Positions 13,110 through 64,000 of a stretch of 64,000 nucleotides of DNA are shown here, piece by piece. The notes beneath the pieces are model-generated. The model saw nothing but the letters and a program-made list of their open reading frames with translations, ran no database searches and was not told where the DNA came from. How positions within the stretch are numbered: position 1 is the first letter of the stretch; every line of letters begins with the position of its first letter. The position numbers and the translations under genes are program-made. The stretch is from Bryobacteraceae bacterium (lineage in GTDB: Bacteria > Acidobacteriota > Terriglobia > Bryobacterales > Bryobacteraceae): assembly GCA_035295805.1 (NCBI GenBank), contig DATGII010000157.1:158-64157 (forward strand), given 5' to 3'.

Positions 13110-13119
13110 CGCAGCCCCC

Positions 13120-13545
13120 TCAAAATTGATCGCGCAGCGATTCGCGCGAAACGGAATCGGGAACCCGTCGGCTCCAGTAGGATTTCGCGTTGGCGTCGCG
13201 GCGCAACAGCAGAGGGTCTTTCCTCATTGCCCGCATGAGCAGAGATACCGGAACAAAGACTGCGTAAAAAATCACGGCCATGGTCACCCGGCCGGTGATC
13301 TTACCCAACAGGACAGCGAGTGCTGTCCAGGCGATATTCAAAGGGTGCAACACGCGCGGAGCAATGAGCGCCAGCAGCAGAAAGGCTCCAGCCGGCCAGA
13401 GCGCCCATTGGCGGAGACTGCCGTGACGCAGCAAAGGGAAAGCGGCGAAAACCATGGACACCACAAAGAACACAACACCAAAAGTCCGGTCGGAGACCGG
13501 CCTCGGAGGCGCCTCGGACTCGAAGTGCTCGTGAGTACTGGTCAC
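13120..13545 (-). CDS. SxtJ-family membrane protein
   Basis: 141-aa ORF (GTG start) with three hydrophobic helices and a ...RAMRKDPLLLRRDANAKSYW tail. It sits between DUF5989 and the carbamoyltransferase, as in the conserved cassette I recall. Confidence 0.7.
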   Translation of the reverse strand: MTSTHEHFESEAPPRPVSDRTFGVVFFVVSMVFAAFPLLRHGSLRQWALWPAGAFLLLALIAPRVLHPLNIAWTALAVLLGKITGRVTMAVIFYAVFVPVSLLMRAMRKDPLLLRRDANAKSYWSRRVPDSVSRESLRDQF

Positions 13546-13701
13546 TTAAAACAGTGGATATAAGAAAGGAGCGATCACCGGGCTGCTACTGGCCAAAGCC
13601 ACTACGATTGCAAAAGCGATCAAGACGGCGATGATCGGTAGGAGCCAGAATCGTTTTCGAACCCTCAAGAAACGCCAGAGTTCCGAGACAAAATCAACCA
13701 T
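13546..13701 (-). CDS. DUF5989-family small membrane protein (51 aa; below the ORF-track cutoff)
   Basis: Hand translation gives MVDFVSELWRFLRVRKRFWLLPIIAVLIAFAIVVALASSSPVIAPFLYPLF*. This matches the DUF5989 pattern (ELWxFLRxRKxxWLLPI...APFIYxLF). The stop abuts the SxtJ start. Confidence 0.75.
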   Translation of the reverse strand: MVDFVSELWRFLRVRKRFWLLPIIAVLIAFAIVVALASSSPVIAPFLYPLF

Positions 13702-13709
13702 GGTTGTAC

Positions 13710-14918
13710 TCAATGCCTTTCAGGCGGATTATCGGTCGCATGAGCGTTCGGACCAGGGGCTACCGCTTTGGCCTCTTTCAGAATGACTTCGGTTAACGGC
13801 ACAGCGACATCCCGGTGGCCTAGGGGCGTCAAGTGGTCGCCGAACACCTGGTGATTCGCGTTTGCTTTCGCGAGTTCGTCGACCAGAGACGTAAACTGGA
13901 TATTCAACCGTTTTGCGATATCGGCGATCTTGCGCTCCCCGGCTTGCCTGGTCAGTTGTGCCTTCACACCGCTCCGAATGGCATCTTGCTGGAACTGGGT
14001 CCACATATCCTGCCGGATCTCGATCAAGGCCGGCAAATATATGATGCGGAATCGAATATCCGGCCCCAAAGTTCTGAGTATCAGATCAAAGCACTGCACA
14101 TTTTGTTTTAAGACCAGGTCCATCGCGGGATGATGCGCATCGGAATAAAAATACGGAAATACCTCGGCGAAACTTCGATAGGTTTTTCGGATCTCCCCAT
14201 AGCGTTCCGCCATCTCCGCTTTCAGGAGCTCGGGAGGTTTGGGATAGCCAAAGAGAATGTCCTCGAGCTGCTCCGGATTCTTACTCGAGTACAAATAGTA
14301 CGGCCCCAGAGGAGCCGGCGTTTCCAACGGAAAACTGTGGGGCAGGTCGTAACCGCCAGATAAGAACAGCCACACCTCGTTCGGATGATACTTCAATGCA
14401 AAATTCCTGATCACGCCGTAGGCATGGGCCGGGCCGTAGTTGGAAATGCCGAAGTTCATGACTTCCACGGCGAGCTTCTTCTCGGACAATGCGGGTACCA
14501 GGTCCTCGATGAGATTACTAAAACGGCTGGTCTCCGGAACCTGTTCCGCCTCGACGAACGAATCGCCGATCATGGCAATTCGGTAGAACGGCGACTGCAG
14601 GAAATGGTCACGGTCAATAAAGCCTTCGGCGTTAGTTCGAACGCGCGTATCGTAGCCAAAATTTGGGTTGGCGCGGTGGACCTGGGTATTTCCGTTAAGC
14701 CTCCACCCGACGCGCCGGTCGTAAACGTAGGCAATGGACTCCGCTTGCTGCACCTGTTGCTGCTGTACTCTCTCCGCAGTTGATTTTCGCAGACGCTCGC
14801 GCACATAAGGGAAGGCGAAATACGCAGTACCGACGGCAACCGTCGTCACCACGACGAGGAGCAGCCAGTTCGTCAGACGGCTGGAACTCACATGTTCTTC
14901 AGCCAGTTTGGTGGACAC
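13710..14918 (-). CDS. membrane-anchored SGNH/GDSL-like hydrolase
   Basis: 402-aa ORF with an N-terminal TM helix (WLLLVVVTTVAVGTAYFAF). Block I is IAMIGDSFVE and a block V-like motif is FGDHLTPLGH. Confidence 0.6.
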   Translation of the reverse strand: MSTKLAEEHVSSSRLTNWLLLVVVTTVAVGTAYFAFPYVRERLRKSTAERVQQQQVQQAESIAYVYDRRVGWRLNGNTQVHRANPNFGYDTRVRTNAEGFIDRDHFLQSPFYRIAMIGDSFVEAEQVPETSRFSNLIEDLVPALSEKKLAVEVMNFGISNYGPAHAYGVIRNFALKYHPNEVWLFLSGGYDLPHSFPLETPAPLGPYYLYSSKNPEQLEDILFGYPKPPELLKAEMAERYGEIRKTYRSFAEVFPYFYSDAHHPAMDLVLKQNVQCFDLILRTLGPDIRFRIIYLPALIEIRQDMWTQFQQDAIRSGVKAQLTRQAGERKIADIAKRLNIQFTSLVDELAKANANHQVFGDHLTPLGHRDVAVPLTEVILKEAKAVAPGPNAHATDNPPERH

Positions 14919-14939
14919 AATGCGGGTATTATAGCGCTA

Positions 14940-15848
14940 ATGGCATTGGATTCTTTATTCAAGGAGCTGCGACGGCGACGCGTCGATGACGATCGCAGCT
15001 ACTACGGGGCAAGGCGAGCCGCTCACCAGGATTATGCTTCAGAAAATGCGCAGGTTTTTTGTTTTGAGAATTACAGGGTCGACGAGCTCCAATCGGAATT
15101 GTCACACGCGAAAAACCCGGCGTTGCAGATGCTGGCCTGCATGTACCAACCACCGCGCAAATTTCCGGACATGAGCAATTTCCGTCTGGGCCCGAATGTC
15201 TTCGACCGCATCCCGCTGGACTGGATTGTTTTTGCGACTGCCGACAAAGCTTTCAAGACTCCGCAACTGATCGGACACGGCGTGACGACGCGCGTGCCCT
15301 GGACGGGCGATCCGCAAACGCTTCCCCGCGGCTGGCAAGGCATAGTCCGCCGCTGTTACGAAAACGGCTTGAACACCAATCAAAAGTGCAACACGCTGGT
15401 CGGCCTCTTTATCAATATCGAGAACGATTTTCGCCAACAGGGCTGGGCGCTCAAAGCGGTTGAAGGGATGAAGGCGATCGCGCGCGGCGCAGGTCTGTCG
15501 TCGCTGATCATTCCATTACGCCTCCCCACGCGGTATGAAAAGGACAACGCCACCGTGGAGTTCAAGGACTTCGCGTTGCTCAAGCGAGAGGATGGGGAAT
15601 ATCGGGATCACTGGCTCCGCTTGCACGTTCGTGCGGGAGCCGAGGTCATAGCGTTGTGTGATTCATCGCATCAGCACGCGATGCATCTTGAGGATTTCTA
15701 CCAGCAATTCAAAGCGACGGGCATCACGAGCAGCGGCTACCATCTGGCGCTTCAAAACGGTGAATGGTTTCGCGCGTTCATTGACCTGGAACGCGAGTTC
15801 GCCCTGATCAATGAAGGCTGCGTGTGGGTCCAATATCGTGACGTCTGA
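14940..15848 (+). CDS. hypothetical protein, possibly GNAT-like acyltransferase
   Basis: The ORF track gives 14892-15848. I prefer the ATG at 14940, which avoids overlapping the divergent gene's start. RQQGWALKAVEGMKAIARGAG resembles the GNAT acyl-CoA-binding motif (Q/RxxGxG/A). The product call is weak. Confidence 0.5.
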   Translation: MALDSLFKELRRRRVDDDRSYYGARRAAHQDYASENAQVFCFENYRVDELQSELSHAKNPALQMLACMYQPPRKFPDMSNFRLGPNVFDRIPLDWIVFATADKAFKTPQLIGHGVTTRVPWTGDPQTLPRGWQGIVRRCYENGLNTNQKCNTLVGLFINIENDFRQQGWALKAVEGMKAIARGAGLSSLIIPLRLPTRYEKDNATVEFKDFALLKREDGEYRDHWLRLHVRAGAEVIALCDSSHQHAMHLEDFYQQFKATGITSSGYHLALQNGEWFRAFIDLEREFALINEGCVWVQYRDV

Positions 15849-15969
15849 TTCGTACTCCGGGTCGTATTGGAGAGTGAGATCGAGTTGCTGATCGTAGCGT
15901 CGATCGCGTCAATCGCCAGCACCGGATGTCCGGAAACGCGTCCGTCCCGTTTCTTCCCGCAAAGAGCGT

Positions 15970-16458
15970 CTATGCGATTCGAGCGCGGCGTTTGCGCGGG
16001 GTGGCCGCTTGTGCGGCGTCGGCTAGGACGCGCAGGGCACGATTGACCGATTCGCTGTCGGGAAACAGATGCTGCAAGTCGGGGTCGATGAGCACCAGGT
16101 TCATTCCCGCGGTGGCGCGCTGCAAGTATTTGCCTCTCACGCCACCCTTCAAGCGGGAGAGATCATACTGTCGCCGCAAATCGTCATTGTGTTTGGCTGC
16201 TGGTCCCTTCTTCATATTGTTTTCGCTCGGTTCGCGTAGCCGGGCGTTGATGATTCGAATTTTCCCCTCGCGCTCGCAGTGGGAAACGAACACCAGACGT
16301 CTCTTTATAGTACAGCCGACCGTGATTTCTCGCCGCTCTTCCGGCGCGTGGTCGGGGTCAGGAAACGTGGTTGCGAGAGGATCTAGGAAAACGGTGGCTG
16401 CGTCCTCAAAGGCGACACGATGCTTCTGAGATTTGCCGCAGGTTTGCGGGCATCCCAT
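15970..16458 (-). CDS. BrnT-like (DUF497) toxin fused in frame to an antitoxin-like tail; N-terminus apparently frameshifted
   Basis: The 162-aa ORF contains KHRVAFEDAATVFLDPLATTFPDPDHAPEERREITVGCTIKRRLVFVSHCEREGKIRIINAR (DUF497 pattern), then MKKGPAAKHNDDLRRQYDLSRLKGGVRGKY...LIDPDLQHLFPDSESVNRALRVL. The canonical first residues MTIEWDARKPAANL are encoded from ATG 16469 in another frame. Confidence 0.65.
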   Translation of the reverse strand: MGCPQTCGKSQKHRVAFEDAATVFLDPLATTFPDPDHAPEERREITVGCTIKRRLVFVSHCEREGKIRIINARLREPSENNMKKGPAAKHNDDLRRQYDLSRLKGGVRGKYLQRATAGMNLVLIDPDLQHLFPDSESVNRALRVLADAAQAATPRKRRARIA

Positions 16459-16632
16459 TCGATCGTCATGCCAAACCGAGTTTACCGCGAGGGCTGCGGG
16501 CGGCTCGAGACCGCTTCACGCGATACACCGCAACATAGGGCAGCGGAGGAAACAACACTTCGCGGGTGTCCGGCTCGCTTCCGGGCCGTCCGCGATACGG
16601 CGACTCCCTCAATGAACGGATTCGTGCCGTAC

Positions 16633-16717
16633 GGGGTGTTTCGCGGACAGGGTAGCCAATACCGAGGTTCATGGCGCACGGAGTTCGGGAGTTTGGTAGA
16701 CCGTCCCCGAAATGCCT
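16633..16717. repeat. 85-bp structured repeat, copy A
   Basis: ggggtgtttcgcggacagggtagccaataccgaggttcatggcgcacggagttcgggagtttggtagaccgtccccgaaatgcct. Identical to copy B (17770-17854) at 76/85 positions by hand alignment, in the same orientation. Confidence 0.85.
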
Positions 16718-17552
16718 AATTCTTTGGTCGCGACGTGCTTCGGGTCTCCAGGCAAACGGGCTCGCGATACTGCCGCGAGATCGTGATGAGGTTCGGATCT
16801 TCATCTTTAAGCGCCTGGAAAATCGGCTCCGTTGGTCTCCACATTCCGTGCAGAGTTCCGTTCAGATCCGCATCGTGGTGGGCTGGAATGTAGATCCTGG
16901 GTTTATAGACGCTCAGGTACTCCAAAGCTCGTTTGATCGTCAGGGCTGGCAATACGTCCGCCGCCACCGCAGCCAGAGCCAGATCCACGTTTCCTACCTT
17001 CTGCATCACTGTTCTTTCGTAGTCCGTGAGACTTCCGCCGCTATCGCGGTAAATGATCCGGTAACGGTCATCGAGGGTAATTAGATACGCAATGGTTCCT
17101 TCCGTGATGATGCGAGGATCGAAACTGCCCCGGTCTTCGATGCTGGCCATTTCGGCCATTTGGGCGGCCGTATATGGCTGCGTGACCGCTTTCAGTGCTT
17201 GATTGAATGCTGCCGTCACGTTCGGCGGAGGCTCTCCATGGCGGCCCAGAATAGGCTCCACCTCAAATCCCGGGAACTTCAGCACTTCTCCTCCCTTGCC
17301 GGTCACGGTCTTGATCAGCTTTGGACCAAGCGCCTGAGATCGTAGCTTATCGGTAGTGATTGGTGCGCCAACGACGATCGCACCGGTCCTGGTGCTGACC
17401 GACGCGGCATCCGACATATGATCGAAGTGCGCATGGCCAATCAAGATAACGTCTGCCTTCTTGATGTCAGCGGCCTTGAATCCCAGTGGAGTATACGTGC
17501 TCCCTCGATCGAAGTATGCGTCCAGTAGAATGATCTGTCCCTTATAGATCAA
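16716..17552 (-). CDS. MBL-fold metallo-hydrolase; no ATG/GTG start in frame and signal peptide in another frame (possible pseudogene or assembly error)
   Basis: 278-aa ORF with HxHxDH in LIGHAHFDHM. The frame is open upstream to 17621 (…HTLAIRWTGYSNFELIYKGQ…) but contains only TTG/CTG codons there. Confidence 0.7.
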   Translation of the reverse strand: MIYKGQIILLDAYFDRGSTYTPLGFKAADIKKADVILIGHAHFDHMSDAASVSTRTGAIVVGAPITTDKLRSQALGPKLIKTVTGKGGEVLKFPGFEVEPILGRHGEPPPNVTAAFNQALKAVTQPYTAAQMAEMASIEDRGSFDPRIITEGTIAYLITLDDRYRIIYRDSGGSLTDYERTVMQKVGNVDLALAAVAADVLPALTIKRALEYLSVYKPRIYIPAHHDADLNGTLHGMWRPTEPIFQALKDEDPNLITISRQYREPVCLETRSTSRPKN

Positions 17553-18765: not shown

Positions 18766-21438
18766 TTACCGGCTGACCTGGAGGCTGGCTCCGCCACTCG
18801 GGCCGCTGTTCGGGCCGCTGCCCGGGACGTCACCGGCGGAGACCAGCTTGACCCAAAGCGAACCGTCGCCTTTGTAGTACGAGGTCGCACTGGCCTGGCG
18901 CAGTGCATCCAGGCTGCTCTGCTCCGTACCCGACGCGGCACTGCTGAATCCCGGCAGCTCGAAGATCACCCACGAGCCGCGATCCAGCTCCCTCACGCTG
19001 AGGGACAGGGTCGGCCTTTCGGTGGTCACCTTGATCTCGCTACCCGCTCGTACGTTGGTTTCTCCGGTAACGCGCAGTTCCTTGCCATTTCGGCTGAGAA
19101 CGATGGGCGGCCCCGCCGGTGCAGGGGCGCCGAGGACTCCCAACCTGGGGCCAACGAGACCACCAGCGCCGCCTCTGCCGCCAGGACCGCCGCTAGCGCC
19201 AGAACCGCCAGCTACCGGAGCCCCGCCTCTACCGCCTCTGCCACCACGACCGCCGCCGCCGGCGCCAACAGTCATGCGCCCGACGTCGCCCTGGCACACG
19301 GCAGCGTTCCAGGCGGGCTTGATCTCGCAGGCGTCGTCGATGGCGATTCCGTCATTTTCGTCGTTGATGAGAATGTAGGAATTGGGGACCCCGCTGACCG
19401 AGCCGTCCTTATCGTTAAATACCGACGTCTGATAGCTCCCGTTGCCGTAATCATCATTGCTCCACTTATACTCCATCGGTGGGAAATACACCGGCTTGGC
19501 GTTGATGAATTTCGCGCGCTGTATGGTGTTGTTGGAGCTCATTCCGAAGCTGGTATACAGCAGGTACGAGATCGCTCCCGTCTTGCGGGTGGCGTTGTCC
19601 TGGTAATTCACGAACGTGACATTGTCCAGTTCGTGATGGTAGTCGTAGAATTCGTAGCCGCGGATCGGGAAATCCGCGAGTGCGGGCTCCGGCAAGCTGC
19701 GGCCGTACGCCTTCTCCGCCGGCGTCCTGGGGTTGCCGATGTTCTCGGTTTCGCCCACGAACCGCGAGTCCACCACCCGTGACGTATAGGCGGATTGACC
19801 GAAGCTGCCGGACGCATGCGTATAGCCAATGGCGTTGTCGGCCAGCTTCAGGTTCTTGTACAGGTGCATCTCACCGCGGCTCCACATGCCGCCATTGCGG
19901 TTCTTGTAGGCGGTGAAATCCTCGATGACCGATTCCACCTGAGGGCTGTTCGGATCAGCGGGATTGGCCACGGAAATATGCCCGCCGGTGGCGAAATGGC
20001 CATCGGGCCTGGGCCCTCGGTCGAACAGGAAACCGTCGAAGTTCGAATGGGAGGTGTTGCCTTTGAACTCCCGCACCCGGGTTCGGCGCGGCCAGGTCCT
20101 GGCACTGATCTCCGTACCTTCGAACTTACCCGTCGGGTGCTGCGGCAAGGCGAACCAGAAACCTGTCGCGTCGGAACCCGCGGCCACGTTGTCGCGGTAA
20201 ATATTGTCCGGATTGGTGATCCAGAAGGTCGACGCCGTGTTGTCGGAAGGGATCAGGATATCCTTGGCGTTCTGGCCGTCCGTATTGAAGTTCTTGCCGC
20301 CCTCCACTCCGAACGGGCCGAGGTCTGTCGCGACGCACGGCTTGTCCGGATGGCACTTGGTCAGAATCCCCAGGTTGTGCACGAACTGGTTGTCGTGCTC
20401 CACGGCATCCTCCAGGAAGAAGCAGTGACCAATGTTGTTGTAGGTCACGTTGTTTTCAACGTCCAGGTAATTGGTGCCATGCACGGTCACGCAGCGGCTG
20501 TAGGTGTCGTGAATCGCCGAGTTCTTGATGTACTGCCCCTGCGCATCGCCGATCAGATGCCAGTGGATCGGATAACGGGCCAGATGCATGTTCTGACCCA
20601 TGCGATTGAGCTCGACGCCCTCGACAAACATCTTGCTCCCATTCATCGCCATGATGTGGCCGCCGAAGAGCGTCGTGTCCGCGTCAGGCGAGGCCTGGAT
20701 CACGATGTTGCGCGTCAGCATGCCGACTTCGCCGCGCTCATCCACGTCGAAGGTGATCTTGCCGAAGTGCATGTAGTCCAGTTTCTTGTCGAGCGTGATC
20801 GTATTGCCACGGATGGCGGCAATGGTGCGCCGCTCTGCCTGATGGGGATCGAAATCCGTCGACGCGAGGACAATCTCGTCACCTTTCTTCCAGTCACCGG
20901 CATTCAAGACTTCGATGGTGTTGCTGCCCGCGGCGGCCGTCTTTGCCAGTTTGGTCCAGGAGTTCTTCTCTGTACCGTGCAGGTTCAGGGTTCCGCCCAT
21001 GAGCATGATCCCGCGGTCACTGCGGTCAGTCGTTCCACCGATTCCACTCATGTCTTCGTCTTTGACGTTGTCGGTGAGGGTAATTGTGGCCTTGCGCGTA
21101 TGAGGCCTGGCTTCGGTACCAATCTCCAACTCCCCGTGCACCATGATCCACTCGGTGGTCAGTTCGAGATCTTTCTTGTCCGCAAAGCTCAGTTTGCCGT
21201 TGATCGTCAGACTGCGCAGCGGTGGCGGAGAGACATCGAGGACGACGTTCATATCCTTTTCAATAGTGACGACGGCATCCTTGGCCGGCACCTTTTTGTC
21301 AGGCCAGGCGGCTGGATCAGACCAGCGCTTCGCGCCGGCCGTCGAAGTCTTTTGCTGCGCTTTGAGGACGGCATATCCGCCCAGGCCGAAAAAGGCTGTA
21401 ACCAGCAACGAAAGGAACAACAGAGAACGTTTTCGCAT
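18766..21438 (-). CDS. G8-domain / right-handed beta-helix secreted protein (CEMIP/TMEM2-like), paralogue 2
   Basis: The ORF track extends to 21462. I prefer ATG 21438 (MRKRSLLFLSLLVTAFFGLGGYAVLKAQ). It is collinear with 8470-11106, roughly three-quarters identical by eye, with the same G8, ARYPIHWHL, RGG linker and C-terminal domain. Confidence 0.85.
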   Translation of the reverse strand: MRKRSLLFLSLLVTAFFGLGGYAVLKAQQKTSTAGAKRWSDPAAWPDKKVPAKDAVVTIEKDMNVVLDVSPPPLRSLTINGKLSFADKKDLELTTEWIMVHGELEIGTEARPHTRKATITLTDNVKDEDMSGIGGTTDRSDRGIMLMGGTLNLHGTEKNSWTKLAKTAAAGSNTIEVLNAGDWKKGDEIVLASTDFDPHQAERRTIAAIRGNTITLDKKLDYMHFGKITFDVDERGEVGMLTRNIVIQASPDADTTLFGGHIMAMNGSKMFVEGVELNRMGQNMHLARYPIHWHLIGDAQGQYIKNSAIHDTYSRCVTVHGTNYLDVENNVTYNNIGHCFFLEDAVEHDNQFVHNLGILTKCHPDKPCVATDLGPFGVEGGKNFNTDGQNAKDILIPSDNTASTFWITNPDNIYRDNVAAGSDATGFWFALPQHPTGKFEGTEISARTWPRRTRVREFKGNTSHSNFDGFLFDRGPRPDGHFATGGHISVANPADPNSPQVESVIEDFTAYKNRNGGMWSRGEMHLYKNLKLADNAIGYTHASGSFGQSAYTSRVVDSRFVGETENIGNPRTPAEKAYGRSLPEPALADFPIRGYEFYDYHHELDNVTFVNYQDNATRKTGAISYLLYTSFGMSSNNTIQRAKFINAKPVYFPPMEYKWSNDDYGNGSYQTSVFNDKDGSVSGVPNSYILINDENDGIAIDDACEIKPAWNAAVCQGDVGRMTVGAGGGGRGGRGGRGGAPVAGGSGASGGPGGRGGAGGLVGPRLGVLGAPAPAGPPIVLSRNGKELRVTGETNVRAGSEIKVTTERPTLSLSVRELDRGSWVIFELPGFSSAASGTEQSSLDALRQASATSYYKGDGSLWVKLVSAGDVPGSGPNSGPSGGASLQVSR

Positions 21439-21574
21439 CGCTAAATCTCCGCGATCGATCATGTTACGCTACTTCCCCCCGCGAGGATCGAAGGATGTGT
21501 AGCCTGCGACAATTTTACACCGATCGCCGGCCGGACAATATCCTCTGGTTTCAACGTTTCGCACGCGCCCGGCT

Positions 21575-56820: not shown

Positions 56821-57744
56821 ATGAAAAAACCTTGCGCTGGTTTTGGTTTGCGGTTGGCCTCCGGGTTCGGTCTGGCGCTCGCCCTAATATCGGTGTCCGG
56901 AGCCGGGGCTCAGGAGAAAGCGCCGTTCTGGAGCGCCGATTTGAACCAGATTCGGCAGACAGCACGCACGATTCCCGGCGCGCGGCCGCTCCGGGTCAAT
57001 GTCCTGAAATTCGCCGAAAGCCGCCGCACCAAGAACTTCTCGGTAAAGGGAATGCCCAGCGAGCCCAGCGTGCAGGCCCGCACGGTCTACCAGGTGGTGT
57101 ATCCGGACGGTAGCATCATGATCGATTCGGGCATGGACCGGCAGGTTCACAAATTTTTCGGCCGCGGCGTCGAAGAGCCGTATTTTCCGGAAGCCGCAAG
57201 CCAAGTGGAGCGGGCACTTCGTGGCGCCCGGTCTATCGTGATGACTCATGAGCACGGAGATCACATCGCCGGCGTCATCCGGACGCCATTTTTTGCCGAA
57301 CTGGCGCCCAAAACGATTGTGACCAGAACCCAGGTGCAAACGCTTCTGACCAATCCGCAGATGCCGGAAATCCGGCTGACCCCGGAGATGGCCGCGCACT
57401 ACATCGTGATCGATTACGAGAGATATTTTCCCCTGGCCCCCGGGTTGGTGCTGATCAAGGCTCCGGGGCATACGCCGGGATCGCAGATGATCTACCTGGC
57501 GCTGCAATCGGAGCGGGAATATGTCCTGGCCGGGGACGTGGCATGGCACATGGACGGGGTTCGCCTGGTTCGCGGAAAAGATGCGGCCTGGATCAAGGAA
57601 GACGAGAACGCGCTGGCGGCCGAGCTGAAATGGCTGAACATGCTCGGCACGACAGAGAAGAACCTGTTCGTGGTGATCAGTCACGACGACGAGCAGCGGC
57701 AGGAGTACGTGCAGCGCGGCGTGCTCGGAGATGGCTTGGAGTAA
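56821..57744 (+). CDS. exported MBL-fold metallo-hydrolase (lactonase-like)
   Basis: 307-aa ORF with a signal-like N-terminus. HxHxDH is in VMTHEHGDHIAG. Confidence 0.82.
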   Translation: MKKPCAGFGLRLASGFGLALALISVSGAGAQEKAPFWSADLNQIRQTARTIPGARPLRVNVLKFAESRRTKNFSVKGMPSEPSVQARTVYQVVYPDGSIMIDSGMDRQVHKFFGRGVEEPYFPEAASQVERALRGARSIVMTHEHGDHIAGVIRTPFFAELAPKTIVTRTQVQTLLTNPQMPEIRLTPEMAAHYIVIDYERYFPLAPGLVLIKAPGHTPGSQMIYLALQSEREYVLAGDVAWHMDGVRLVRGKDAAWIKEDENALAAELKWLNMLGTTEKNLFVVISHDDEQRQEYVQRGVLGDGLE

Positions 57745-57748
57745 AGCG

Positions 57749-58831
57749 ATGACAGGAATTCGAGGGAAAGGCGTTGGGGCGACCTTGATGCTGGCGTGCT
57801 CCGGATTGGGGTTGGTGCTGTTCGCGCAATCGAGAACCGGGGAAGACCGGCTCCAGGCGGGCAATCCCAGAACGGCCGTACTCAAGCCCGCTTCCTCACC
57901 CTATATCGACGCTCATGTCCATATAGACCAGCACGAGCCGGAAGGCGCGGTCGAGCTCCTGTTGCGCGCGATGGACGGTCTGAACGGGGCGAAAGCTTTC
58001 ATCCAGACAGAGCCATATGGCCCGGACAACCCGGGGAGATGGGATGCCGAGATGATCCTGCCGGCGGTGAAAAAGCACGCAGACAAATTGATGGTGCTGG
58101 GCGGCGGCGGAACTCTCAATCCGATGATTCTCGAATCCTGGCGAACGGGCGATTCCGGACCCGAAATCCGGAAGAAATTTCGCGAGCGTGCCGAAGCACT
58201 TCTGCGGGAAGGCGTAGCGGGATTCGGGGAGTTGTCAACGGAGCATCTCTCTCTGCCGCAGTCTCCGGTGAAGGATTACGAATATGCGCCCGCGGATCAG
58301 CCATTGATGCTGCTGCTCGCCGACATTGCCGCCGAGCATCACGTTCCGATCGGCCTGCATATGGAAGGCGTGCCCAACGACATGCCGATGCCGGCGGAGT
58401 ATCAGGCGCCCAATCCGCCGGAGCTCCATGCAAATATCGCGGCCCTCGAACGGCTGCTGAGCCACAACCAACGAGCCAACATCATCTGGGCGCACGCCGG
58501 CGCCGACAACCTCGGGTATCGCACACCCGAGTTATGCCGGAGGCTGCTGCAGGCCCATGCGAATCTGTACATGGAGATCAAGTATGATCCGAATTTCCCC
58601 GGTAAGGATCCGCCGATGGTGAATGGCAAGCTGAAGCCCGAATGGTTGAAACTGTTTTCCGATTTCCCCGACCGCTTTCTTATTGGGAGCGACCAGCACT
58701 ACGATCCGCCGGCGACCGCGCCTCTGGCGCGGGCGCAACAGAATGCTTTCCTGACGGATCAGCTTCCGCCGGATTTAAGGCGCAAGATCGGGATGGAAAA
58801 CGCGCTGCGGATTTACGGGGTGCATCCTTGA
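57749..58831 (+). CDS. exported metal-dependent amidohydrolase (TIM-barrel)
   Basis: The track ORF starts at 57731. I prefer ATG 57749 (MTGIRGKGVGATLMLACSGLGLVLFAQS). HxH is in YIDAHVHID. Confidence 0.78.
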   Translation: MTGIRGKGVGATLMLACSGLGLVLFAQSRTGEDRLQAGNPRTAVLKPASSPYIDAHVHIDQHEPEGAVELLLRAMDGLNGAKAFIQTEPYGPDNPGRWDAEMILPAVKKHADKLMVLGGGGTLNPMILESWRTGDSGPEIRKKFRERAEALLREGVAGFGELSTEHLSLPQSPVKDYEYAPADQPLMLLLADIAAEHHVPIGLHMEGVPNDMPMPAEYQAPNPPELHANIAALERLLSHNQRANIIWAHAGADNLGYRTPELCRRLLQAHANLYMEIKYDPNFPGKDPPMVNGKLKPEWLKLFSDFPDRFLIGSDQHYDPPATAPLARAQQNAFLTDQLPPDLRRKIGMENALRIYGVHP

Positions 58832-58840
58832 TGCCGGCGT

Positions 58841-58880
58841 GAGTTGGCTGGGAGGCAGGGATTCGAACCCCGATACGCAG
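58841..58880. repeat. 40-bp duplicate of the 3' end of tRNA-Gln (att-like direct repeat, distal copy)
   Basis: gagttggctgggaggcagggattcgaaccccgatacgcag is identical to 63098-63137. The flanks diverge immediately on both sides. Confidence 0.85.
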
Positions 58881-58954
58881 CGTTTCGGCGGCCTGGCAGC
58901 AACGCCAGCTTGCGCTACGCTGAACTCAACCCAGCGCGGGCTGGCATCGTGCCA

Positions 58955-59173
58955 TTACACCGGATCCTCGCACCTTCCCTGCGCCGAGCTCATGTACCGG
59001 GCTCCAAATTAATCGAGGCCCGTTTCCGCATCCCGTTGTTTGGCGGTGACGCGAATTCGGTTCGTATCCGAGGACGGGGTGAACTCTTCGTCAAAGGGCA
59101 TGTAGTCATACGTCTGGGCAACGGGAAGCCAGCGTGTCAATCCGGCGGAATGCAATGATCGAGGGTCACTCAT
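58955..59173 (-). pseudogene. RHS/YD repeat-associated core remnant with in-frame stop
   Basis: Hand translation from ATG 59173 gives MSDPRSLHSAGLTRWLPVAQTYDYMPFDEEFTPSSDTNRIRVTAKQRDAETGLD*FGARYMSSAQGRCEDPV*. This resembles the RHS core consensus ...YxYxPFGE...RxxFTGKERDxETGLxYFGARYY.... TAA replaces the expected Tyr codon. Confidence 0.6.
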
Positions 59174-62100
59174 TGAGTATGCTGAACGGTCAGAACGCTA
59201 CTGGACGGGGACTGCGCACCATTTAAGGTAGCAACGATTGGATAATCGCCGTCTGGCATCGACGCGGGGATCTGAATTGCAATTTGATACGCCGCCGCAT
59301 AACTGCTGAGGACTGCCCCGAGCACTGGAATGGCGGTTCCGCCTAACGTGACGGTCACGGGACTTTGTGTCGGTGGCGCGACCGCGGTTGGCTCCTGTCC
59401 GGCGGGCACCAAGGGATTGGTCGGTCCGAAGCCCGTGCCCCAGAGAGTGATCACCTCGCCTGGTTTGGCCGCAACAGTCGTTACCCCAGGAAATGTATCG
59501 TTCTTCGCGGCAATGCTGTAATCCGCGTGTGTGGCTACCGGCTGATTCCCCGGCCATGGAAAGAACGCGGGGCTGTACAGTAGCGAACTGGTGGTGAACG
59601 GCGTGCTTGCGCCGCCACCCGTTGTGACGACTACCTGGACCGGACCATTCCCCACATCTGGAGCCTGCACGTTAATCTGTCCGGGCGAGATGGCATAGAT
59701 GTAGGCGGGTTTGCCCCCGATCGTGACGCTTACGGTGTCCAGTTGCTTCGGAAGCTGCCCGTTGATAATGGCCTTGCTCCAGTCGTCGTAGGGAAGAGGA
59801 GTAAAGTTCGATCCGTATATAGAGACGAAGGCTCCGGAGGCTACGCCGTGCTGCCCGCCTGCGGCATTAGCGACTGATGTGATTACGGGAGCGGAGAGGT
59901 GAATTGGATCGGCGAGCAGGATGATGGCGTCGAATGGCGCGAGAGTGAGGGAATCGGAGACGGCCTGCCCATTGTTGATATCGGGTGCTTGGGCTCCTTT
60001 GATGCGATGGATTCCGGTGCGGTTGAGTGCGCCTGCTAGATCGGTCACGGAAAACGTGTGCGGCTGGGCGAAAGGATTGATCAAAACAAATCCATTCTCG
60101 AAATCCCTTCGCCATGGGCCCACACCGCCCTGGTAGATCTTGACATTATCGATCGCAACTTTGCCGCCGCCGTTCGTGAGGAAAAAGTTGATCGACCAGT
60201 TTCCAGCGGAGGGAATAGTGAACGGAAAGTGCAGGGTTCCGGAGTCCCCTGCGACTGTCCCTGGTACAAGGGCGTGGTCCAAACTCTGACTACCATTATT
60301 TACGCCGATTCGAAACCCGGATTGTGCGCAATCTATAGTTTCGAGGATCCGCCAGTCGAATATCAGCAGGTACGTTACCCCGGCACTGAGGGGAATAACC
60401 GCCGGATTCGTCCGCACGCTGACGGTACCTTGCTTCGTATGGTCTGGATTACTGAGTACCAGACTTCCGCCACCAGAAATGAACTCGCCGGCGGCCTGTG
60501 TAATTGAAACCGCAGTCGACGGATTTCCGATGAACGAGTTTGGAAGGACTCCGCTCTCGAAGCCTTCCTGAAACACAAGCGTGCCCGGATTCGCCAGCTC
60601 GCTAGCATCTGCCAGGGGCTGTCCGAGGTACCCTTTCTTCGTGCGATCCTCAATTGCGTTTCCGGTAGAATCCACGGAGTATTCGTCAAACCAATAAGGC
60701 GCGCTTAATGAGTCTTTGAGGGAATATTCATAAAATCCATTACCGAGAAGGGCCGTACCCATTGAGAGGCGGTGCTGCTGGAGGTCCTGAGATGTGGGAG
60801 TGAGGTAAGCGTTCGAGAAGTTCTCCGTGTTAAAGTCGGAAGCGTTTATGCCGCAGGCCTGCATGATATTGAGTTGAGGAGCCCGCAGAAGCGTCTGCAT
60901 TCGTAAATACGAGTCGAACTCCACGCGCCAGCTAGCCGGAGAGCTGGAGGCGATTGGGGCGCCGGGTTGGTTCCACCATGAATTGAAACACTCGAACGTG
61001 TACCCGTTAACGAACGGCGCTAACGCAAACTGGGGTGCTCCCCCTGCATTGCCCATTATGAGTTGCGAGCCATTCGTGTCCAAGTTAATCTGCTGGAGCA
61101 TTTTGGCCTTAGCAGCGCGTATCATCTCGCTCGTAGATGCCGGGGTCTCGTCCCTTAGTCCGTTCCGGTTCCAGTCGTAGTTAAAAAGCGCAGGATCATC
61201 ATTGTGCGGAAAATCAGGGTTGAGCGCATCCTCCATGAAATGAAACCAGACGCCATCCCACACACCCGATGGAAAAATCTGAGTATTGAGGAAATTGGGA
61301 AGGGCGGTCCGCCATGTCTGGCCGTTGACGACAGGCACGAGGTCCGAGATATTCATGTAAAAGAGATCCGGAAAGTTCACCGGACCGATGACGTTCCCCG
61401 AAGTATCGGCTGACTTCCACTCGTCCGGCGTGCTCTTGACTAGCTGGTAATCTAAATCGATGTTGCTGCCAAATGGCGGCGTTGTTATTTGCTGTCCTTC
61501 GAGCATTCTTTGAGGGAGGATGACGGCATTGGGATTCAATGTGCGGATGCGGTGAATTGAATCGGGGTCCAAGGTTTGATTGTGAATGGAGAGGCCCGCA
61601 ATTACATCGGCAAAGGCTAGGCGGCTCTCGATCTGCGCGACCGTGTAAGTAAATGGCCGCTCATCCCAGCCAAATTGGGCCATCTCGTGTGTGCCCTCCA
61701 GAATGTAATTGCCCAGACGCGGAAAGGGGGCCGTCGCCAGGTAATTCCACGAGGGAGGAGGCGCGCTCTGCGCGGTCACGTCCTGCCGGTAAACGAAAAT
61801 GTTATCGATGACGAGCGAAACCGCAGCGGCTATGCCCAAGTGCAGAACATAGGCCGATCTACCAGCAGTCTGCGCACCCGTTGAGAAGGTCCCTGTCACT
61901 TCGGAATTTTTTAGCATCGTTGGGATGACGACCTGCGATGCCTGGTCAGTCGTTCCGGTGGGCTGGAACCATAGATAAAAAAGGGTGTCGGCGGTTCCAG
62001 GAGAGATGATCCGATAATCAAACTTGATCGTGTAGATTGTATTCGCGCCAATCGGTATTACGAACGGATCCGTGATGAATCCTCCCGGGTTGTTGAGGAG

Positions 62101-62847
62101 GAGTGAGGCTTTGCCCGAGATAACCCGGGAAGGATCGGTGGTCACCGTTGCACCTTGCAGTTGAATTCCAGATTTAAGCGTTGGCGCGGTTTTTTCGCCG
62201 TTCTCGAAGGCGATCACCTTCCCAGTAGCGTCCGTGATCTGAATATTATCAATCGAGATTGCGCCCGTGGATCCAATGTTCCAAAGGACTTGGTAATCGG
62301 AATAATTCGCAAGTGTGCTGGTAAGAGTAATATTACCGGTCGCGCCAGACGTCCCCACGATCGGCACAGCTTTCAGAAAGTTAGCCTGAGAGGCTGCCGT
62401 TGCCGAAAAGAACTGCACTACGAAGTAGTTGCTTGGGGGCGTGAGGATCTTGTACTGGAATGTCACTGTATATGAATGGTTTGGAGTAAAGGGAAGAACC
62501 GAAGGATTGGTCGAAAGAAATGCGGTATTCGATGCTGAGCCAAAATACGACCCTTTGATCGATTCGCCACCTGCGATGACTTCGCCTTGGTTTGACGTGA
62601 GCGAGCCCGCTGGGCCGAGGGAGAATGCCGAACCGAGGGTCGGAGCGACGGTTTCGATATCGTCCGAATAGATTTGTGTGTACTGCGCCTGCCAACGAAC
62701 CGGAGTTCCGGAGCCGCCTTGAGCCCACAAAGAGGAGCTGAGGCAGAAGCTCCAGAAGAAGAATTCGAAAATATGATGCAGGCAGACACAATCGCTTGTG
62801 CGGTGCATAATCATTGGACCTTTTTGTAGACAACAGTGCACAACCAC
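59170..62847 (-). CDS. 1225-aa secreted multidomain protein: CBM-like beta-sandwich modules, a central glycoside-hydrolase-like region, and a Solibacter-type C-terminal domain
   Basis: The longest ORF has a GTG at 62847; ATGs at 62814 and 62808 are alternative starts before the hydrophobic FFFWSFCLSSSLWAQG. The last ~220 aa (PVITSVANAAGG...FVSIYGSNF...ISPGQINVQAP...GEVITLWGTGFGPT...AAYQIAIQIPASMPDG...) fit my memory of TIGR03437. Confidence 0.8.
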   Translation of the reverse strand: MVVHCCLQKGPMIMHRTSDCVCLHHIFEFFFWSFCLSSSLWAQGGSGTPVRWQAQYTQIYSDDIETVAPTLGSAFSLGPAGSLTSNQGEVIAGGESIKGSYFGSASNTAFLSTNPSVLPFTPNHSYTVTFQYKILTPPSNYFVVQFFSATAASQANFLKAVPIVGTSGATGNITLTSTLANYSDYQVLWNIGSTGAISIDNIQITDATGKVIAFENGEKTAPTLKSGIQLQGATVTTDPSRVISGKASLLLNNPGGFITDPFVIPIGANTIYTIKFDYRIISPGTADTLFYLWFQPTGTTDQASQVVIPTMLKNSEVTGTFSTGAQTAGRSAYVLHLGIAAAVSLVIDNIFVYRQDVTAQSAPPPSWNYLATAPFPRLGNYILEGTHEMAQFGWDERPFTYTVAQIESRLAFADVIAGLSIHNQTLDPDSIHRIRTLNPNAVILPQRMLEGQQITTPPFGSNIDLDYQLVKSTPDEWKSADTSGNVIGPVNFPDLFYMNISDLVPVVNGQTWRTALPNFLNTQIFPSGVWDGVWFHFMEDALNPDFPHNDDPALFNYDWNRNGLRDETPASTSEMIRAAKAKMLQQINLDTNGSQLIMGNAGGAPQFALAPFVNGYTFECFNSWWNQPGAPIASSSPASWRVEFDSYLRMQTLLRAPQLNIMQACGINASDFNTENFSNAYLTPTSQDLQQHRLSMGTALLGNGFYEYSLKDSLSAPYWFDEYSVDSTGNAIEDRTKKGYLGQPLADASELANPGTLVFQEGFESGVLPNSFIGNPSTAVSITQAAGEFISGGGSLVLSNPDHTKQGTVSVRTNPAVIPLSAGVTYLLIFDWRILETIDCAQSGFRIGVNNGSQSLDHALVPGTVAGDSGTLHFPFTIPSAGNWSINFFLTNGGGKVAIDNVKIYQGGVGPWRRDFENGFVLINPFAQPHTFSVTDLAGALNRTGIHRIKGAQAPDINNGQAVSDSLTLAPFDAIILLADPIHLSAPVITSVANAAGGQHGVASGAFVSIYGSNFTPLPYDDWSKAIINGQLPKQLDTVSVTIGGKPAYIYAISPGQINVQAPDVGNGPVQVVVTTGGGASTPFTTSSLLYSPAFFPWPGNQPVATHADYSIAAKNDTFPGVTTVAAKPGEVITLWGTGFGPTNPLVPAGQEPTAVAPPTQSPVTVTLGGTAIPVLGAVLSSYAAAYQIAIQIPASMPDGDYPIVATLNGAQSPSSSVLTVQHTQ

Positions 62848-63016
62848 TTGGCATAGCTTACGATACGGGAATTCGGTTTTTCAATTTGGCACGAAGGTTC
62901 TCGTAGACGCGCCAGCATGGGCCCTTTTCCGGAACGAAGCGGCCCGGTGGAGATCGAGTGTCACTGGAGTTCAGAAGGATAACCAGAGTGTCGACAGAGA
63001 ACTGAGAATCTCAATT

Positions 63017-63073
63017 AAGGCGTCTGTCCCTCTTGTCCTTTGTCCTTTGGACTCTTACAAAAAGGCGTCTGTC
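63017..63073. repeat. two direct copies of AAGGCGTCTGTC, 45 bp apart, next to the tRNA-proximal att copy
   Basis: 63017-63028 and 63062-63073. The flanks are also similar (…ccctcttgtcctttg versus …tccttttgtcttag). Confidence 0.7.
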
Positions 63074-63101
63074 TCCTTTTGTCTTAGATGCAGCGGAGAG
63101 T

Positions 63102-63175
63102 TGGCTGGGAGGCAGGGATTCGAACCCCGATACGCAGATCCAGAGTCTGCAGTCTTACCGTTAGACGACCTCCCA
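63102..63175 (-). tRNA. tRNA-Gln (anticodon CTG)
   Basis: The minus strand reads TGGGAGG-TC-GTCT-AACGGTA-AGAC-T-GCAGA-CTCTGGA-TCTGC-GTAT-CGGGG-TTCGAAT-CCCTG-CCTCCCA-G-CCA. That is 74 nt, all four stems pair, and the 7-nt anticodon loop carries CTG. Confidence 0.9.
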
Positions 63176-63251
63176 ACAGGAGAGACTTTATTTTAACAAA
63201 CCCGGGCGCGGGCGTTCCAGAACACGCTGCGTAGTACACTGGGGTTTCGCA

Positions 63252-64000
63252 ATGAACAAGTGTCTGCGGCTCTGCGTCGTGGCGGCGCTGGGGCTTTCCG
63301 CTGCCTCCGCGGTCGAGTGGAAAACACTGAAGCCGCAAGGATATGTCAGCGATTTCGCGCGCGTCATCGATGCCGGCACGAAAGAGCGGCTGGAGAATTA
63401 TTGCGGGATCGTCGAGCGCTCGACGGGGGCGCAGATCGCCCTGGTTACGATTCCCTCCCTGGAAGGGGAACCGATCGAGGATGTCGCCAACACGATTTTT
63501 CGGGCGTGGGGCGTCGGGCAGAAGGGCAAAGACGAGGGCATCCTGCTGCTGCTCGCCATCCGGGACCGGCGCAGCCGGCTGGAGGTGGGGTACGGCCTGG
63601 AGCCGATTCTTCCGGACGGACTGGACGGCAGCATTCTGCGGGAGATGCGGCCGGCGTTGCGGCAGCAGCGCTACGGTGAGGCATTTCTGGCGGCGGCCGA
63701 TACGATCGGGAGCGATATCGCGGCGGCGAAACACGTGGCGCTCAACGCGCCGCTGCAGCGCCGCATGCGGCCGACGGCGACCGATTCGATTCCATGGCCG
63801 ATGGTGCTGGGCGGCATTTTTTTGCTGTTCTGGTTGATGCGGGCAGGCGGGCCGCGCGGCTACGGCGGCGGCGGGGGCGGCGGATTCCTGCCGGGGTTGA
63901 TTCTGGGCAGCATGATGAATCGCGGTTCCTGGGGAAGCCGGGGCAGCGGGGGGTTCGGGGGATTCGATTCGGGCGACGGCTTCGGAGGTTTCGGGGGCGG
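63252..64000 (+). CDS. TPM-domain (YgcG-like) protein with Gly-rich C-terminal tail; 3' end runs off the window
   Basis: Not in the ORF track (no stop). MNKCLRLCVVAALGLSAASAVEWKTLKPQGYVSDFARVID...STGAQIALVTIPSLEGEPIEDVANTIFRAWGVGQKGKDEGILLLLAIRDRRSRLEVGYGLE is the TPM pattern. It is followed by a TM helix and GGFGG repeats. Confidence 0.8.
   Translation, partial: MNKCLRLCVVAALGLSAASAVEWKTLKPQGYVSDFARVIDAGTKERLENYCGIVERSTGAQIALVTIPSLEGEPIEDVANTIFRAWGVGQKGKDEGILLLLAIRDRRSRLEVGYGLEPILPDGLDGSILREMRPALRQQRYGEAFLAAADTIGSDIAAAKHVALNAPLQRRMRPTATDSIPWPMVLGGIFLLFWLMRAGGPRGYGGGGGGGFLPGLILGSMMNRGSWGSRGSGGFGGFDSGDGFGGFGG

What the first reader, a model, noticed from the sequence alone, without database searches (positions are those of the whole stretch)
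58841..63137. 4.2-kb insertion bounded by a 40-bp direct repeat of the tRNA-Gln 3' end, with no integrase
- **Repeat:** The 40-mer gagttggctgggaggcagggattcgaaccccgatacgcag occurs at 63098-63137, where it forms the T-arm, acceptor 3' strand, CCA and 4 flanking nt of an intact tRNA-Gln(CTG). It occurs again at 58841-58880, 10 nt after the amidohydrolase stop.
- **Sharp edges:** Identity ends abruptly at both edges. The distal copy has no 5' acceptor strand, so it is not a second tRNA.
- **Geometry:** This matches attL/attR left by site-specific integration into a tRNA 3' end, with the insert lying downstream of the tRNA.
- **Content:** The insert carries only a 1225-aa secreted protein gene, an RHS-core remnant and about 250 bp of non-coding DNA. 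I found no recombinase.
- **Composition:** Sampled 60-nt lines inside are about 45-55% GC versus about 60-65% outside.
Basis: partly seen in the sequence, partly recalled or inferred. Interest (0 to 1): 0.65.

Follow-up and report, generated by a model that had tools for sequence, protein, structure and literature searches.

The report
Integrase-less islet behind tRNA-Gln
A 4.2-kb stretch of foreign-looking DNA carrying one secreted, sugar-cleaving-type enzyme gene lies behind a glutamine tRNA gene between two copies of the tRNA's tail; this is the usual scar of an integrating mobile element that has since lost its own integrase, so it is an ordinary genomic-island remnant.

Summary
An exact 40-mer occurs twice (58841-58880 and 63098-63137). 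The second copy is the last 36 nt of an intact tRNA-Gln(CTG) on the minus strand plus 4 flanking nt. An independent assembly carries the identical arrangement.

The 4.2 kb between the copies is the lowest-GC stretch of the window. It holds:
- one intact, selectively constrained gene for a 1212-aa secreted glycoside-hydrolase-like protein;
- a stop-interrupted RHS-core remnant;
- no recombinase in any frame.

Comparative data support the att reading. In 118 classifiable metagenomic copies of this tRNA tail, 24 are displaced 3' fragments. At least ten loci have Pfam-confirmed or motif-identified tyrosine integrases next to the site. Relatives sharing the tRNA-Gln/TPM-gene linkage each carry different DNA there: one an intact integrase element, another a frameshifted integrase with a 15-nt tRNA remnant 4.65 kb away.

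No empty site was found. The window's repeat stops 11 nt short of the block seen in all 24 other fragments.

Best reading: a decayed, probably immobilised remnant of a tRNA-Gln-integrating element (CIME-like). This is a known kind of feature and of low novelty.

The parts
57731..58831 (+). Left chromosomal flank: Amidohydro_2 gene. Homology to relatives ends at its stop codon.
   Evidence: Pfam PF04909. blastn of L011-L014 stops at 58831/58832.
58841..58880 (-). Distal repeat copy: the displaced 3' fragment of tRNA-Gln (36 nt of tRNA plus 4 nt). It is attL-like and is not a tRNA.
   Evidence: Exact 40-mer. No tRNA called there.
58881..58972 (.). Island arm next to the distal copy. It has no homologue among the arms of other elements.
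   Evidence: Local alignments against 118 flanks are within the shuffled range.
58973..59104 (-). RHS-associated-core remnant (last YD repeat plus ...RDAETGLD*FGARY...). It has an in-frame stop at 59009-59011 and no toxin domain. It lies within the 54-aa ORF 59009-59173, whose ATG overlaps the cargo stop codon.
   Evidence: Translation. TIGR03696 E=8.6e-5, 23 bits, below the 32.5 cut-off.
59170..62808 (-). Cargo gene: a 1212-aa secreted multidomain protein. It has a signal peptide, two N-terminal beta-sandwiches, a (beta/alpha)8 barrel of GH168/GHL15 type, and a C-terminal TIG/Soli_cterm domain. It is intact and under purifying selection.
   Evidence: TIGR03437 at E=3.9e-49 and TIG. Orthologues at 67-78% identity, some carrying PF14885. 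AlphaFold pLDDT 89; Foldseek hits to GH168 fucanases with TMt 0.63-0.65. dN/dS 0.11-0.16.
62809..62889 (-). 5' leader or upstream region of the cargo gene. It is still homologous to the orthologue locus L139.
   Evidence: blastn alignment runs from window 62889 to 60030.
62890..63097 (.). Island arm next to the tRNA. It is non-coding, has GC about 0.50 and no homologue. It contains a 12-nt direct repeat AAGGCGTCTGTC at 63017-63028 and 63062-63073.
63098..63137 (-). Proximal repeat copy: the 3' 36 nt of the functional tRNA-Gln plus 4 flanking nt. It is attR-like.
63102..63175 (-). Intact tRNA-Gln(CTG), the integration target.
   Evidence: ARAGORN. Rfam RF00005 at 58.4 bits.
63252..64000 (+). 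Right chromosomal flank: TPM-domain gene, cut by the window end. Its linkage to tRNA-Gln is conserved in relatives.
   Evidence: Pfam PF04536. Synteny in L088, L091, L071, L055, L126, L021 and L142-147.

Best explanation
**What it is**
- The 58841-63137 segment is the decayed remnant of a mobile element that a tyrosine integrase once inserted into the 3' end of tRNA-Gln(CTG).

**How it arose**
- Integration duplicated the tRNA tail.
  - The copy at 63098-63137 keeps the tRNA intact.
  - The copy at 58841-58880 is the displaced fragment.
- Later deletions and replacements removed the integrase and most other genes.
- What remains is:
  - one useful, selectively maintained cargo gene for a secreted glycoside-hydrolase-like protein;
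  - a scrap of an RHS toxin gene;
  - two short non-coding arms.

**Likely present state**
- The distal site lacks the anticodon-loop part that every other tRNA-Gln fragment from related bacteria retains.
- The islet is therefore probably no longer excisable by that class of integrase. It would now behave as fixed chromosomal DNA: a CIME-like or 'locked-in' islet.

**Shown versus inferred**
- Shown: the repeat, its tRNA origin, the orientation, the foreign composition, the absence of a recombinase, and the use of this tRNA site by integrases in relatives.
- Inferred: that an integrase made this particular repeat, that the integrase was lost by deletion, and that the islet is now immobile.
For: **The repeat itself**
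- There is an exact 40-nt direct repeat of the tRNA 3' end, in the same orientation, with 0 expected by chance.
- An independent contig is identical.

**Foreign composition**
- The interior is the lowest-GC 4.2-kb stretch of the 64-kb window.
- The cargo gene has the lowest GC3 (z=-2.8) and the worst codon fit (z=-3.0) of 36 genes.

**The site is an integration hotspot**
- Of 118 classifiable metagenomic copies of the 36-nt tRNA tail, 24 are displaced 3' fragments.
- 19 copies are directly abutted by the C-terminal coding end of one integrase family.
- Integrases beside the site were confirmed by Pfam PF00589 in L021, L033, L066, L070, L107, L109 and L142.

**The same chromosomal locus (tRNA-Gln next to the TPM gene) is variable in relatives**
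- L142-145 (TPM 87% aa) carry an intact integrase 68 nt from the tRNA, followed by an MTase/Mrr gene and a DUF927 gene.
- L146 (89% aa) carries a truncated, frameshifted integrase and only a 15-nt tRNA remnant 4.65 kb away. This is a second example of decay at this site.
- L088, L091, L055 and L126 each carry unrelated DNA there.

**Signs of decay inside the islet**
- The RHS core is cut at both ends and interrupted by a stop codon.
- Orthologues of the cargo gene sit in unrelated contexts elsewhere: a glycoside-hydrolase gene cluster, a sulfatase/TonB locus, and a MotAB locus.

**No recombinase**
- None was found in any frame.

**Precedent**
- The target-plus-displaced-fragment principle is described in PMC4383910.
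- Decay of integrated elements to att-flanked remnants lacking integration genes is described as the CIME in PMC5704250.
Against: - No empty site (amidohydrolase directly adjacent to tRNA-Gln with a single 40-mer) was found. The closest relatives of the amidohydrolase are 88-89% identical at the DNA level, and homology ends at the stop codon with different DNA downstream. The state before insertion is therefore unknown.
- The island arms resemble none of the arms of the other sampled tRNA-Gln elements, so the parent element is unidentified.
- The identity block of 36 tRNA nt differs from the roughly 47 nt seen in all 24 other fragments. This fits erosion, but it fits equally well an unknown integrase with a different crossover sublocation.
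- No integrase pseudogene fragment survives inside the islet to prove the loss.
Confidence: 0.7

Rival explanations
1. It is a still-functional integrase-free cassette: a true cis/trans-mobilizable element. Both 40-nt sites would be active att sites, and an integrase encoded elsewhere in the genome or on an incoming element would excise and move the single-gene islet.
For: - The two copies are 40/40 identical, with no drift.
- tRNA-Gln-specific integrases are common in related bacteria.
- The cargo gene is intact and under selection.
- A 12-nt direct repeat lies 25-80 nt from the proximal site, where arm-type binding sites would be expected.
- CIMEs are documented elsewhere (PMC5704250).
Against: - The distal site lacks the anticodon-loop segment present in all 24 other fragments. 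That segment is where that class of integrase would cross over.
- No second copy of the 12-nt motif exists on the other arm.
- No related islet, attP junction or copy was found in the plasmid or phage collections, and the tRNA 36-mer has no match in the viral contigs.
- No integrase was found in the window's main ORFs that were scanned.
Confidence: 0.13
2. The repeat was made without a site-specific recombinase. Either RecA-dependent single crossover inserted a circular DNA that happened to carry a tRNA-Gln 3' segment, or the whole already-decayed region was imported from a relative by homologous recombination in the flanks.
For: - A 40-nt stretch of perfect homology is about the minimum needed for RecA.
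- Weak similarity continues for 16 nt beyond the repeat on one side (10 of 16). Integrase cores do not require this.
- No integrase trace remains in the islet.
Against: - The circular DNA would itself need a tRNA tail, which normally comes from an integrase-type attP.
- The geometry (3' fragment, same orientation, island on the 3' side of the tRNA) is the specific signature of integrase-mediated tDNA integration (PMC4383910).
- The same site demonstrably hosts integrases in relatives.
Confidence: 0.12
3. It is an assembly chimera or a chance repeat, and there is no real biological structure.
For: The window comes from a metagenome assembly.
Against: - Chance expectation is 0.00.
- The 40-nt repeat is shorter than the k-mer implied by the contig names (k141), so it would not join unrelated contigs.
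- A second contig from another ENA analysis is 100% identical over 5848 nt spanning both repeats.
Confidence: 0.02

Closest known systems
tDNA genomic islands as defined by Islander (Hudson, Lau & Williams 2015, PMC4383910; Williams 2002, as cited there)
   Same: - An intact tRNA gene plus a displaced 3' fragment in the same orientation mark the two ends.
- The island lies on the 3' side of the tRNA.
- Composition is anomalous.
- The length is above the 2-kb filter.
   Different: - No integrase gene lies inside or overlapping the islet. The Islander integrase filter would reject it.
- The identity block ends inside the anticodon-stem 3' strand rather than in the anticodon loop or T loop.
CIME (cis-mobilizable element; decayed ICE/IME that keeps attL and attR; Guedon et al. 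2017, PMC5704250)
   Same: - Integration and transfer genes are absent.
- Both att-like repeats are retained.
- It sits at the 3' end of a tRNA gene that is also targeted by integrase-bearing elements in relatives.
   Different: - Mobilisation, accretion with an ICE/IME and att function are untested here.
- The host is a soil Acidobacterium, not a Firmicute.
- The distal site may be truncated and therefore inactive.
L146 islet at the orthologous tRNA-Gln/TPM locus
   Same: - Same chromosomal locus and similar size (4.65 kb).
- A tRNA 3' remnant marks the far end.
- No working integrase.
   Different: - L146 still shows the frameshifted C-terminal third of an integrase abutting the tRNA.
- Its distal remnant is only 15 nt.
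- Its cargo genes are unrelated to those in the window.
Mx8/SSV-type integrases whose gene extends across attP (cited in PMC4383910)
   Same: A family of integrases at this very tRNA-Gln site in metagenomes reads into the tRNA tail. This shows which kind of element uses the site.
   Different: The window's islet has no trace of that integrase. Its tRNA-side arm is unrelated to that family's conserved '...EVLPNEW' coding end.

Membership tests
tDNA-integrated genomic island (Islander criteria) | A full-length tRNA/tmRNA gene with a cognate fragment of it elsewhere in the same replicon | tested here: met
   tRNA-Gln at 63102-63175. A 36-nt 3' fragment (plus 4 nt) at 58841-58880.
tDNA-integrated genomic island (Islander criteria) | The fragment has the same orientation as the tRNA gene, and it is an end fragment (3' end) | tested here: met
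   Both copies match on the same strand. The fragment is the 3'-terminal 36 nt including CCA (sequence).
tDNA-integrated genomic island (Islander criteria) | An integrase ORF inside or overlapping the candidate island | tested here: not met
   No PF00589 or other recombinase hit in the main ORF or in 10 alternative ORFs. tblastn with the L021 and L142 integrases was negative.
tDNA-integrated genomic island (Islander criteria) | Length between 2 and 200 kb, and the fragment not inside a conserved protein domain | tested here: met
   4257 nt from start to start. The fragment lies in the 9-nt-plus intergenic space after the amidohydrolase stop.
CIME (cis-mobilizable element) | [quoted passage not shown] | tested here: met
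   No recombinase, relaxase or conjugation domain. The only intact gene is the GH-like cargo.
CIME (cis-mobilizable element) | Retains attL and attR sites | tested here: inconclusive
   A 40/40 identical repeat is present. The distal copy lacks the 11 nt reaching the anticodon loop that all 24 other fragments keep. Functionality is unknown.
CIME (cis-mobilizable element) | Derived from an ICE/IME by decay, and can be excised or transferred when a related element supplies the integrase | not testable with these tools
   This needs excision PCR or mating assays. Only indirect support exists: integrase-bearing and decaying elements at the same locus in relatives.
RHS/YD-repeat toxin gene | RHS-associated core domain (TIGR03696) above threshold, preceded by YD repeats and followed by a toxin domain | tested here: not met
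   Only 44 core positions match, at 23 bits (cut-off 32.5). There is an in-frame stop and neither a repeat body nor a toxin domain. It is a remnant only.
Glycoside hydrolase (GHL15/GH168-like) cargo | A (beta/alpha)8 catalytic barrel with family-level sequence or structure match | tested here: inconclusive
   Pfam finds only TIG in the window protein, and there is no PDB sequence hit. Homologues carry PF14885. The model barrel matches GH168 fucanases at TMt 0.63-0.65 with 12-15% identity. Catalytic residues were not checked.

The most novel reading that the evidence does not exclude
The islet is a working integrase-free cargo cassette. It would be a minimal one-gene unit bounded by two tRNA-Gln tails, which the abundant tRNA-Gln-specific integrases of soil Acidobacteria (or an unknown integrase using a T-arm/3'-end crossover) excise and re-insert in trans. 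This would give a route by which single polysaccharide-degrading genes are traded between genomes.
Probability: 0.12. Interest if true: 0.4.

Novelty: new member of a known kind. Interest (0 to 1): 0.2.

Why it matters
- It marks tRNA-Gln(CTG) as a busy integration hotspot in uncultured soil Acidobacteria.
- It gives a concrete case of a carbohydrate-active secreted enzyme gene that was brought in by a mobile element and kept after the element decayed.
- This is useful for annotation. Such remnants are missed by island finders that require an integrase.
- It is also useful for understanding how these large genomes gain glycan-degrading genes.
- It does not reveal a new mechanism.

Tried and rejected
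**Search for an empty site**
- The genome-contig scan with the amidohydrolase returned 10 loci at 58-81% identity, none with a tRNA.
- The closest amidohydrolase homologues (89% aa) lie on short contigs with a cytochrome c gene, tRNA-His or a sigma-70 gene downstream.
- The closest TPM homologue (96%) lies on a contig that stops 25 nt before the gene.
- No empty site was found.

**Search for the parent element**
- The island arms were aligned against the arms of 118 tRNA-Gln copies and of L142-147. All scores were within the shuffled range.
- An apparent TTGTCTT...GAGAG resemblance to the L142 arm was not significant.

**Integrase remnants**
- tblastn and tblastx with the L021 and L142 integrases gave only noise.

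**Plasmid or phage origin**
- blastn of the islet against PLSDB and INPHARED gave no match.
- The 36-mer has no match in IMG/VR.

**Other checks**
- An Rfam E-value search of 58500-64000 found only the tRNA.
- The promoter and terminator scan was not above shuffled expectation.
- The exact-sequence look-up of the amidohydrolase as I delimited it found no record.
- Misassembly and chance were considered and rejected.
Full report
**1. Observation**

ARAGORN finds a single tRNA in the window, tRNA-Gln(CTG), at 63102-63175 on the minus strand. Rfam confirms it at 58.4 bits.

Read on the tRNA strand, the repeat has two parts:
- The last 36 nt of the tRNA: 4 nt of the anticodon-stem 3' strand, the variable loop, the T arm, the acceptor 3' strand, the discriminator and CCA.
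- 4 nt beyond the 3' end.

The distal copy has no 5' half and is not called as a tRNA. It begins 9 nt after the stop codon of an Amidohydro_2 gene.

On the island side of the distal copy the identity ends abruptly. On the other side, 10 of the next 16 nt still match. For a single fixed comparison p is about 0.003, which is suggestive only.

A second contig from another ENA analysis (L017) is 100% identical over 5848 nt covering both repeats. This excludes a one-off assembly artefact.

**2. Content of the 4.2 kb**

- **Cargo gene.** One long minus-strand ORF spans 59170-62847. The gene callers start it at 62808, giving 1212 aa (P0121).
  - It has a signal peptide.
  - It has a C-terminal TIGR03437 'Soli_cterm'/TIG domain.
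  - Homologues at 67-78% identity have the same length, and several carry PF14885 (GHL15).
  - An AlphaFold model of residues 40-1000 is confident (pLDDT 89.1, pTM 0.81).
  - The model shows two N-terminal beta-sandwiches, a (beta/alpha)8 barrel and further beta domains.
  - The barrel's best compact PDB matches are GH168 endo-1,3-fucanases (TMt 0.63-0.65).
  - dN/dS against three orthologues is 0.11-0.16.
  - The gene is therefore intact and constrained.
- **RHS remnant.** Downstream, a 54-aa ORF has an ATG overlapping the cargo stop codon. This ORF and the following codons encode '...YDYMPFDEEF...RDAETGLD*FGARYMSSAQGR'.
  - This is the end of an RHS shell with an in-frame stop and no toxin domain.
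  - TIGR03696 scores 23 bits, below its cut-off.
- **tRNA-side arm.** About 290 nt are non-coding.
  - The first 80 nt are still homologous to the region upstream of an orthologue in L139.
  - The remaining 208 nt (GC 0.50) have no homologue. They contain a 12-nt direct repeat at 63017-63028 and 63062-63073.
- **No recombinase.** No Pfam recombinase or any other domain is found in ten alternative-frame ORFs. tblastn with two integrases taken from the same site in relatives finds nothing in the window.

**3. Composition**

- The insert has GC 0.548, against 0.604 on the left flank and 0.656 on the right.
- It is the lowest-GC 4.2-kb stretch of the 64 kb.
- The cargo gene has the lowest GC3 (0.619, z=-2.8) and the poorest fit to the window's synonymous codon usage (z=-3.0) among 36 genes.
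- Orthologues sit in hosts of GC 0.57-0.61.

The interior therefore looks acquired.

**4. Is this tRNA tail an integration site?**

- Of 118 classifiable copies, 94 are full tRNA-Gln genes and 24 are 3' fragments without the 5' half.
- In all 24 fragments the identity to the tRNA continues beyond the 36 nt, typically by 10-12 nt into the anticodon loop.
- 19 copies are abutted on the 3' side by the C-terminal coding end of one integrase family ('...EVLPNEW', reading on through the complement of the tRNA).
- Pfam PF00589 confirms integrases next to the site in L021, L033, L066, L070, L107 and L109.

This tRNA tail is therefore a much-used att site in related soil bacteria. The relatives are Acidobacteria/Bryobacteraceae, judging by source names and by the Soli_cterm domain.

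**5. The same chromosomal locus in relatives**

The linkage of tRNA-Gln to the TPM-domain gene is conserved. The DNA on the 3' side of the tRNA differs in every relative:

| Locus | What lies on the 3' side of the tRNA |
|---|---|
| L088 | FRG-domain gene |
| L091 | haem-peroxidase-like gene plus a short integrase-end signature |
| L055 | two long ORFs, not checked against Pfam |
| L126 | partial ORF at the contig end, not checked against Pfam |
| L021 | integrase |

Two relatives are especially informative:
- **L142-145** (TPM protein 87% identical; includes an NCBI MAG). An intact 386-aa integrase starts 68 nt from the tRNA. A response regulator, an MTase/Mrr gene and a DUF927 gene follow.
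- **L146** (89% identical). The last third of an integrase, with a frameshift, abuts the tRNA. A 15-nt remnant of the tRNA 3' end lies 4.65 kb away next to an unrelated gene. This is a second, independently decayed islet at the same place.

**6. The other flank**

The closest relatives of the MBL-amidohydrolase gene pair are 88-89% identical at the DNA level. They align with the window up to the amidohydrolase stop codon (58831/58832) and then diverge, both from the window and from each other. Downstream they carry a cytochrome c gene, tRNA-His or a sigma-70 gene.

No sampled sequence has the amidohydrolase next to tRNA-Gln.

**7. Interpretation**

[quoted passage not shown] Three observations point to decay of a formerly larger element:
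- the absence of an integrase;
- the RHS scrap cut on both sides;
- the single surviving, constrained cargo gene, whose orthologues live in unrelated contexts.

[quoted passage not shown] Islander-type searches discard such candidates at the integrase filter (PMC4383910).

The window's identity block is unique among the 25 fragments in ending at tRNA nt 36. There are two readings:
- A deletion from the island side ate into the distal att site, as has clearly happened in L146, and took the integrase with it. In L066 and L070 the integrase sits right next to the fragment.
- The parent element used a different crossover sublocation. Anticodon-loop, T-loop and 3'-end classes are known (bioRxiv 10.1101/2020.11.02.365908, citing Williams 2002).

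In the first case the islet can no longer be excised by anticodon-loop-type integrases. I cannot distinguish these two readings with the data available.

**8. Rivals**

- A still-mobilizable cassette is possible but unsupported. There is no second arm motif and no copy elsewhere, and the distal site is truncated.
- RecA-mediated insertion or import of an already-decayed region cannot be excluded. It would still trace back to an integrase-type attP.
- Chimera and chance are excluded.

**9. Verdict**

- The feature is a new example of a well-known kind: a decayed, integrase-less tRNA-linked islet.
- Its interest lies mainly in the hotspot it reveals in Acidobacteria and in the retained glycoside-hydrolase-like cargo.

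Noticed in passing
L025, L033, L067, L077, L082, L107, L108 and others (metagenome loci); e.g. L033:1852-3189, L107:3640-4941: A family of tyrosine integrases has an ORF that runs into the tRNA-Gln 3' end. The conserved C-terminus '...SPQQSA.QPQ...ESDGFEEVLPNEW' continues as LGGRDSNPDTQIQSLQSYR across the complement of the tRNA. It abuts 19 of 118 tRNA-Gln copies. This resembles the Mx8/SSV design in which int extends across attP.
   Followed up: partly
L146:165-179 and L146:4383-4903: A second integrase-decayed islet lies at the orthologous tRNA-Gln/TPM locus. A frameshifted C-terminal third of an integrase abuts the tRNA. Only 15 nt of the tRNA 3' end remain, 4.65 kb away.
   Followed up: yes
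L142:1-9844 (also L143, L144, L145): An apparently intact element sits at the same tRNA-Gln in a relative (TPM 87% aa). It carries a 386-aa integrase 68 nt from the tRNA, a response regulator, an N6/N4 MTase fused to an Mrr-like nuclease, and a DUF927 protein. Its far end lies beyond the 10 kb fetched.
   Followed up: partly
L098 (two copies of the 36-mer, 1741 nt apart): This is the only metagenome locus holding both a fragment and the full tRNA. A 200-aa stop-to-stop ORF carrying the integrase catalytic motif spans the fragment itself. This suggests an integrase gene that was split or truncated at att.
   Followed up: no
window 11304-17552, flanked by 8470-11106 and 18766-21462: A second low-GC block (gene GC 0.545-0.587, GC3 0.62-0.67) contains a carbamoyltransferase gene, an MBL-fold gene and ORFs without Pfam hits. 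It lies between two paralogous G8/CEMIP beta-helix genes, so it may be another acquired segment.
   Followed up: no
window 58829-58840 compared with L011:1934-1945, L013:2129-2140 and L014: In every relative, homology to the window stops exactly at the amidohydrolase stop codon. L011 and L013 share TGATTCAGC and then diverge from each other. L013 has tRNA-His (minus strand) 137 nt downstream. This gene end is a recurrent rearrangement breakpoint.
   Followed up: partly
window 59170-59173: The cargo gene's stop codon overlaps the ATG of the 54-aa RHS-remnant ORF (ATGA). The orthologue in L018/L019 shows the same 4-nt overlap with a different downstream gene (DUF6259), whose N-terminus is unrelated.
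   Followed up: partly
window 63017-63028 and 63062-63073: An exact 12-nt direct repeat AAGGCGTCTGTC, with 45-nt spacing, lies 25-80 nt from the tRNA-proximal att copy. It could be integrase arm-type sites or promoter elements of the cargo gene. No further copy exists in the islet.
   Followed up: partly
window 58825-58840 vs 63082-63097: 10 of 16 nt match immediately outside the 40-mer on the side away from the tRNA body (56 nt at 89% overall). This may be chance, or the element's attP arm may have been captured from a similar tRNA-Gln downstream flank.
   Followed up: partly
L018:195-19867: The 72%-identical orthologue of the cargo gene sits in a run of six large secreted glycan-active-looking genes (GHL15, Laminin_G_3, FG-GAP, DUF6259, GH113/CBM_4_9). 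In the window the gene stands alone.
   Followed up: no
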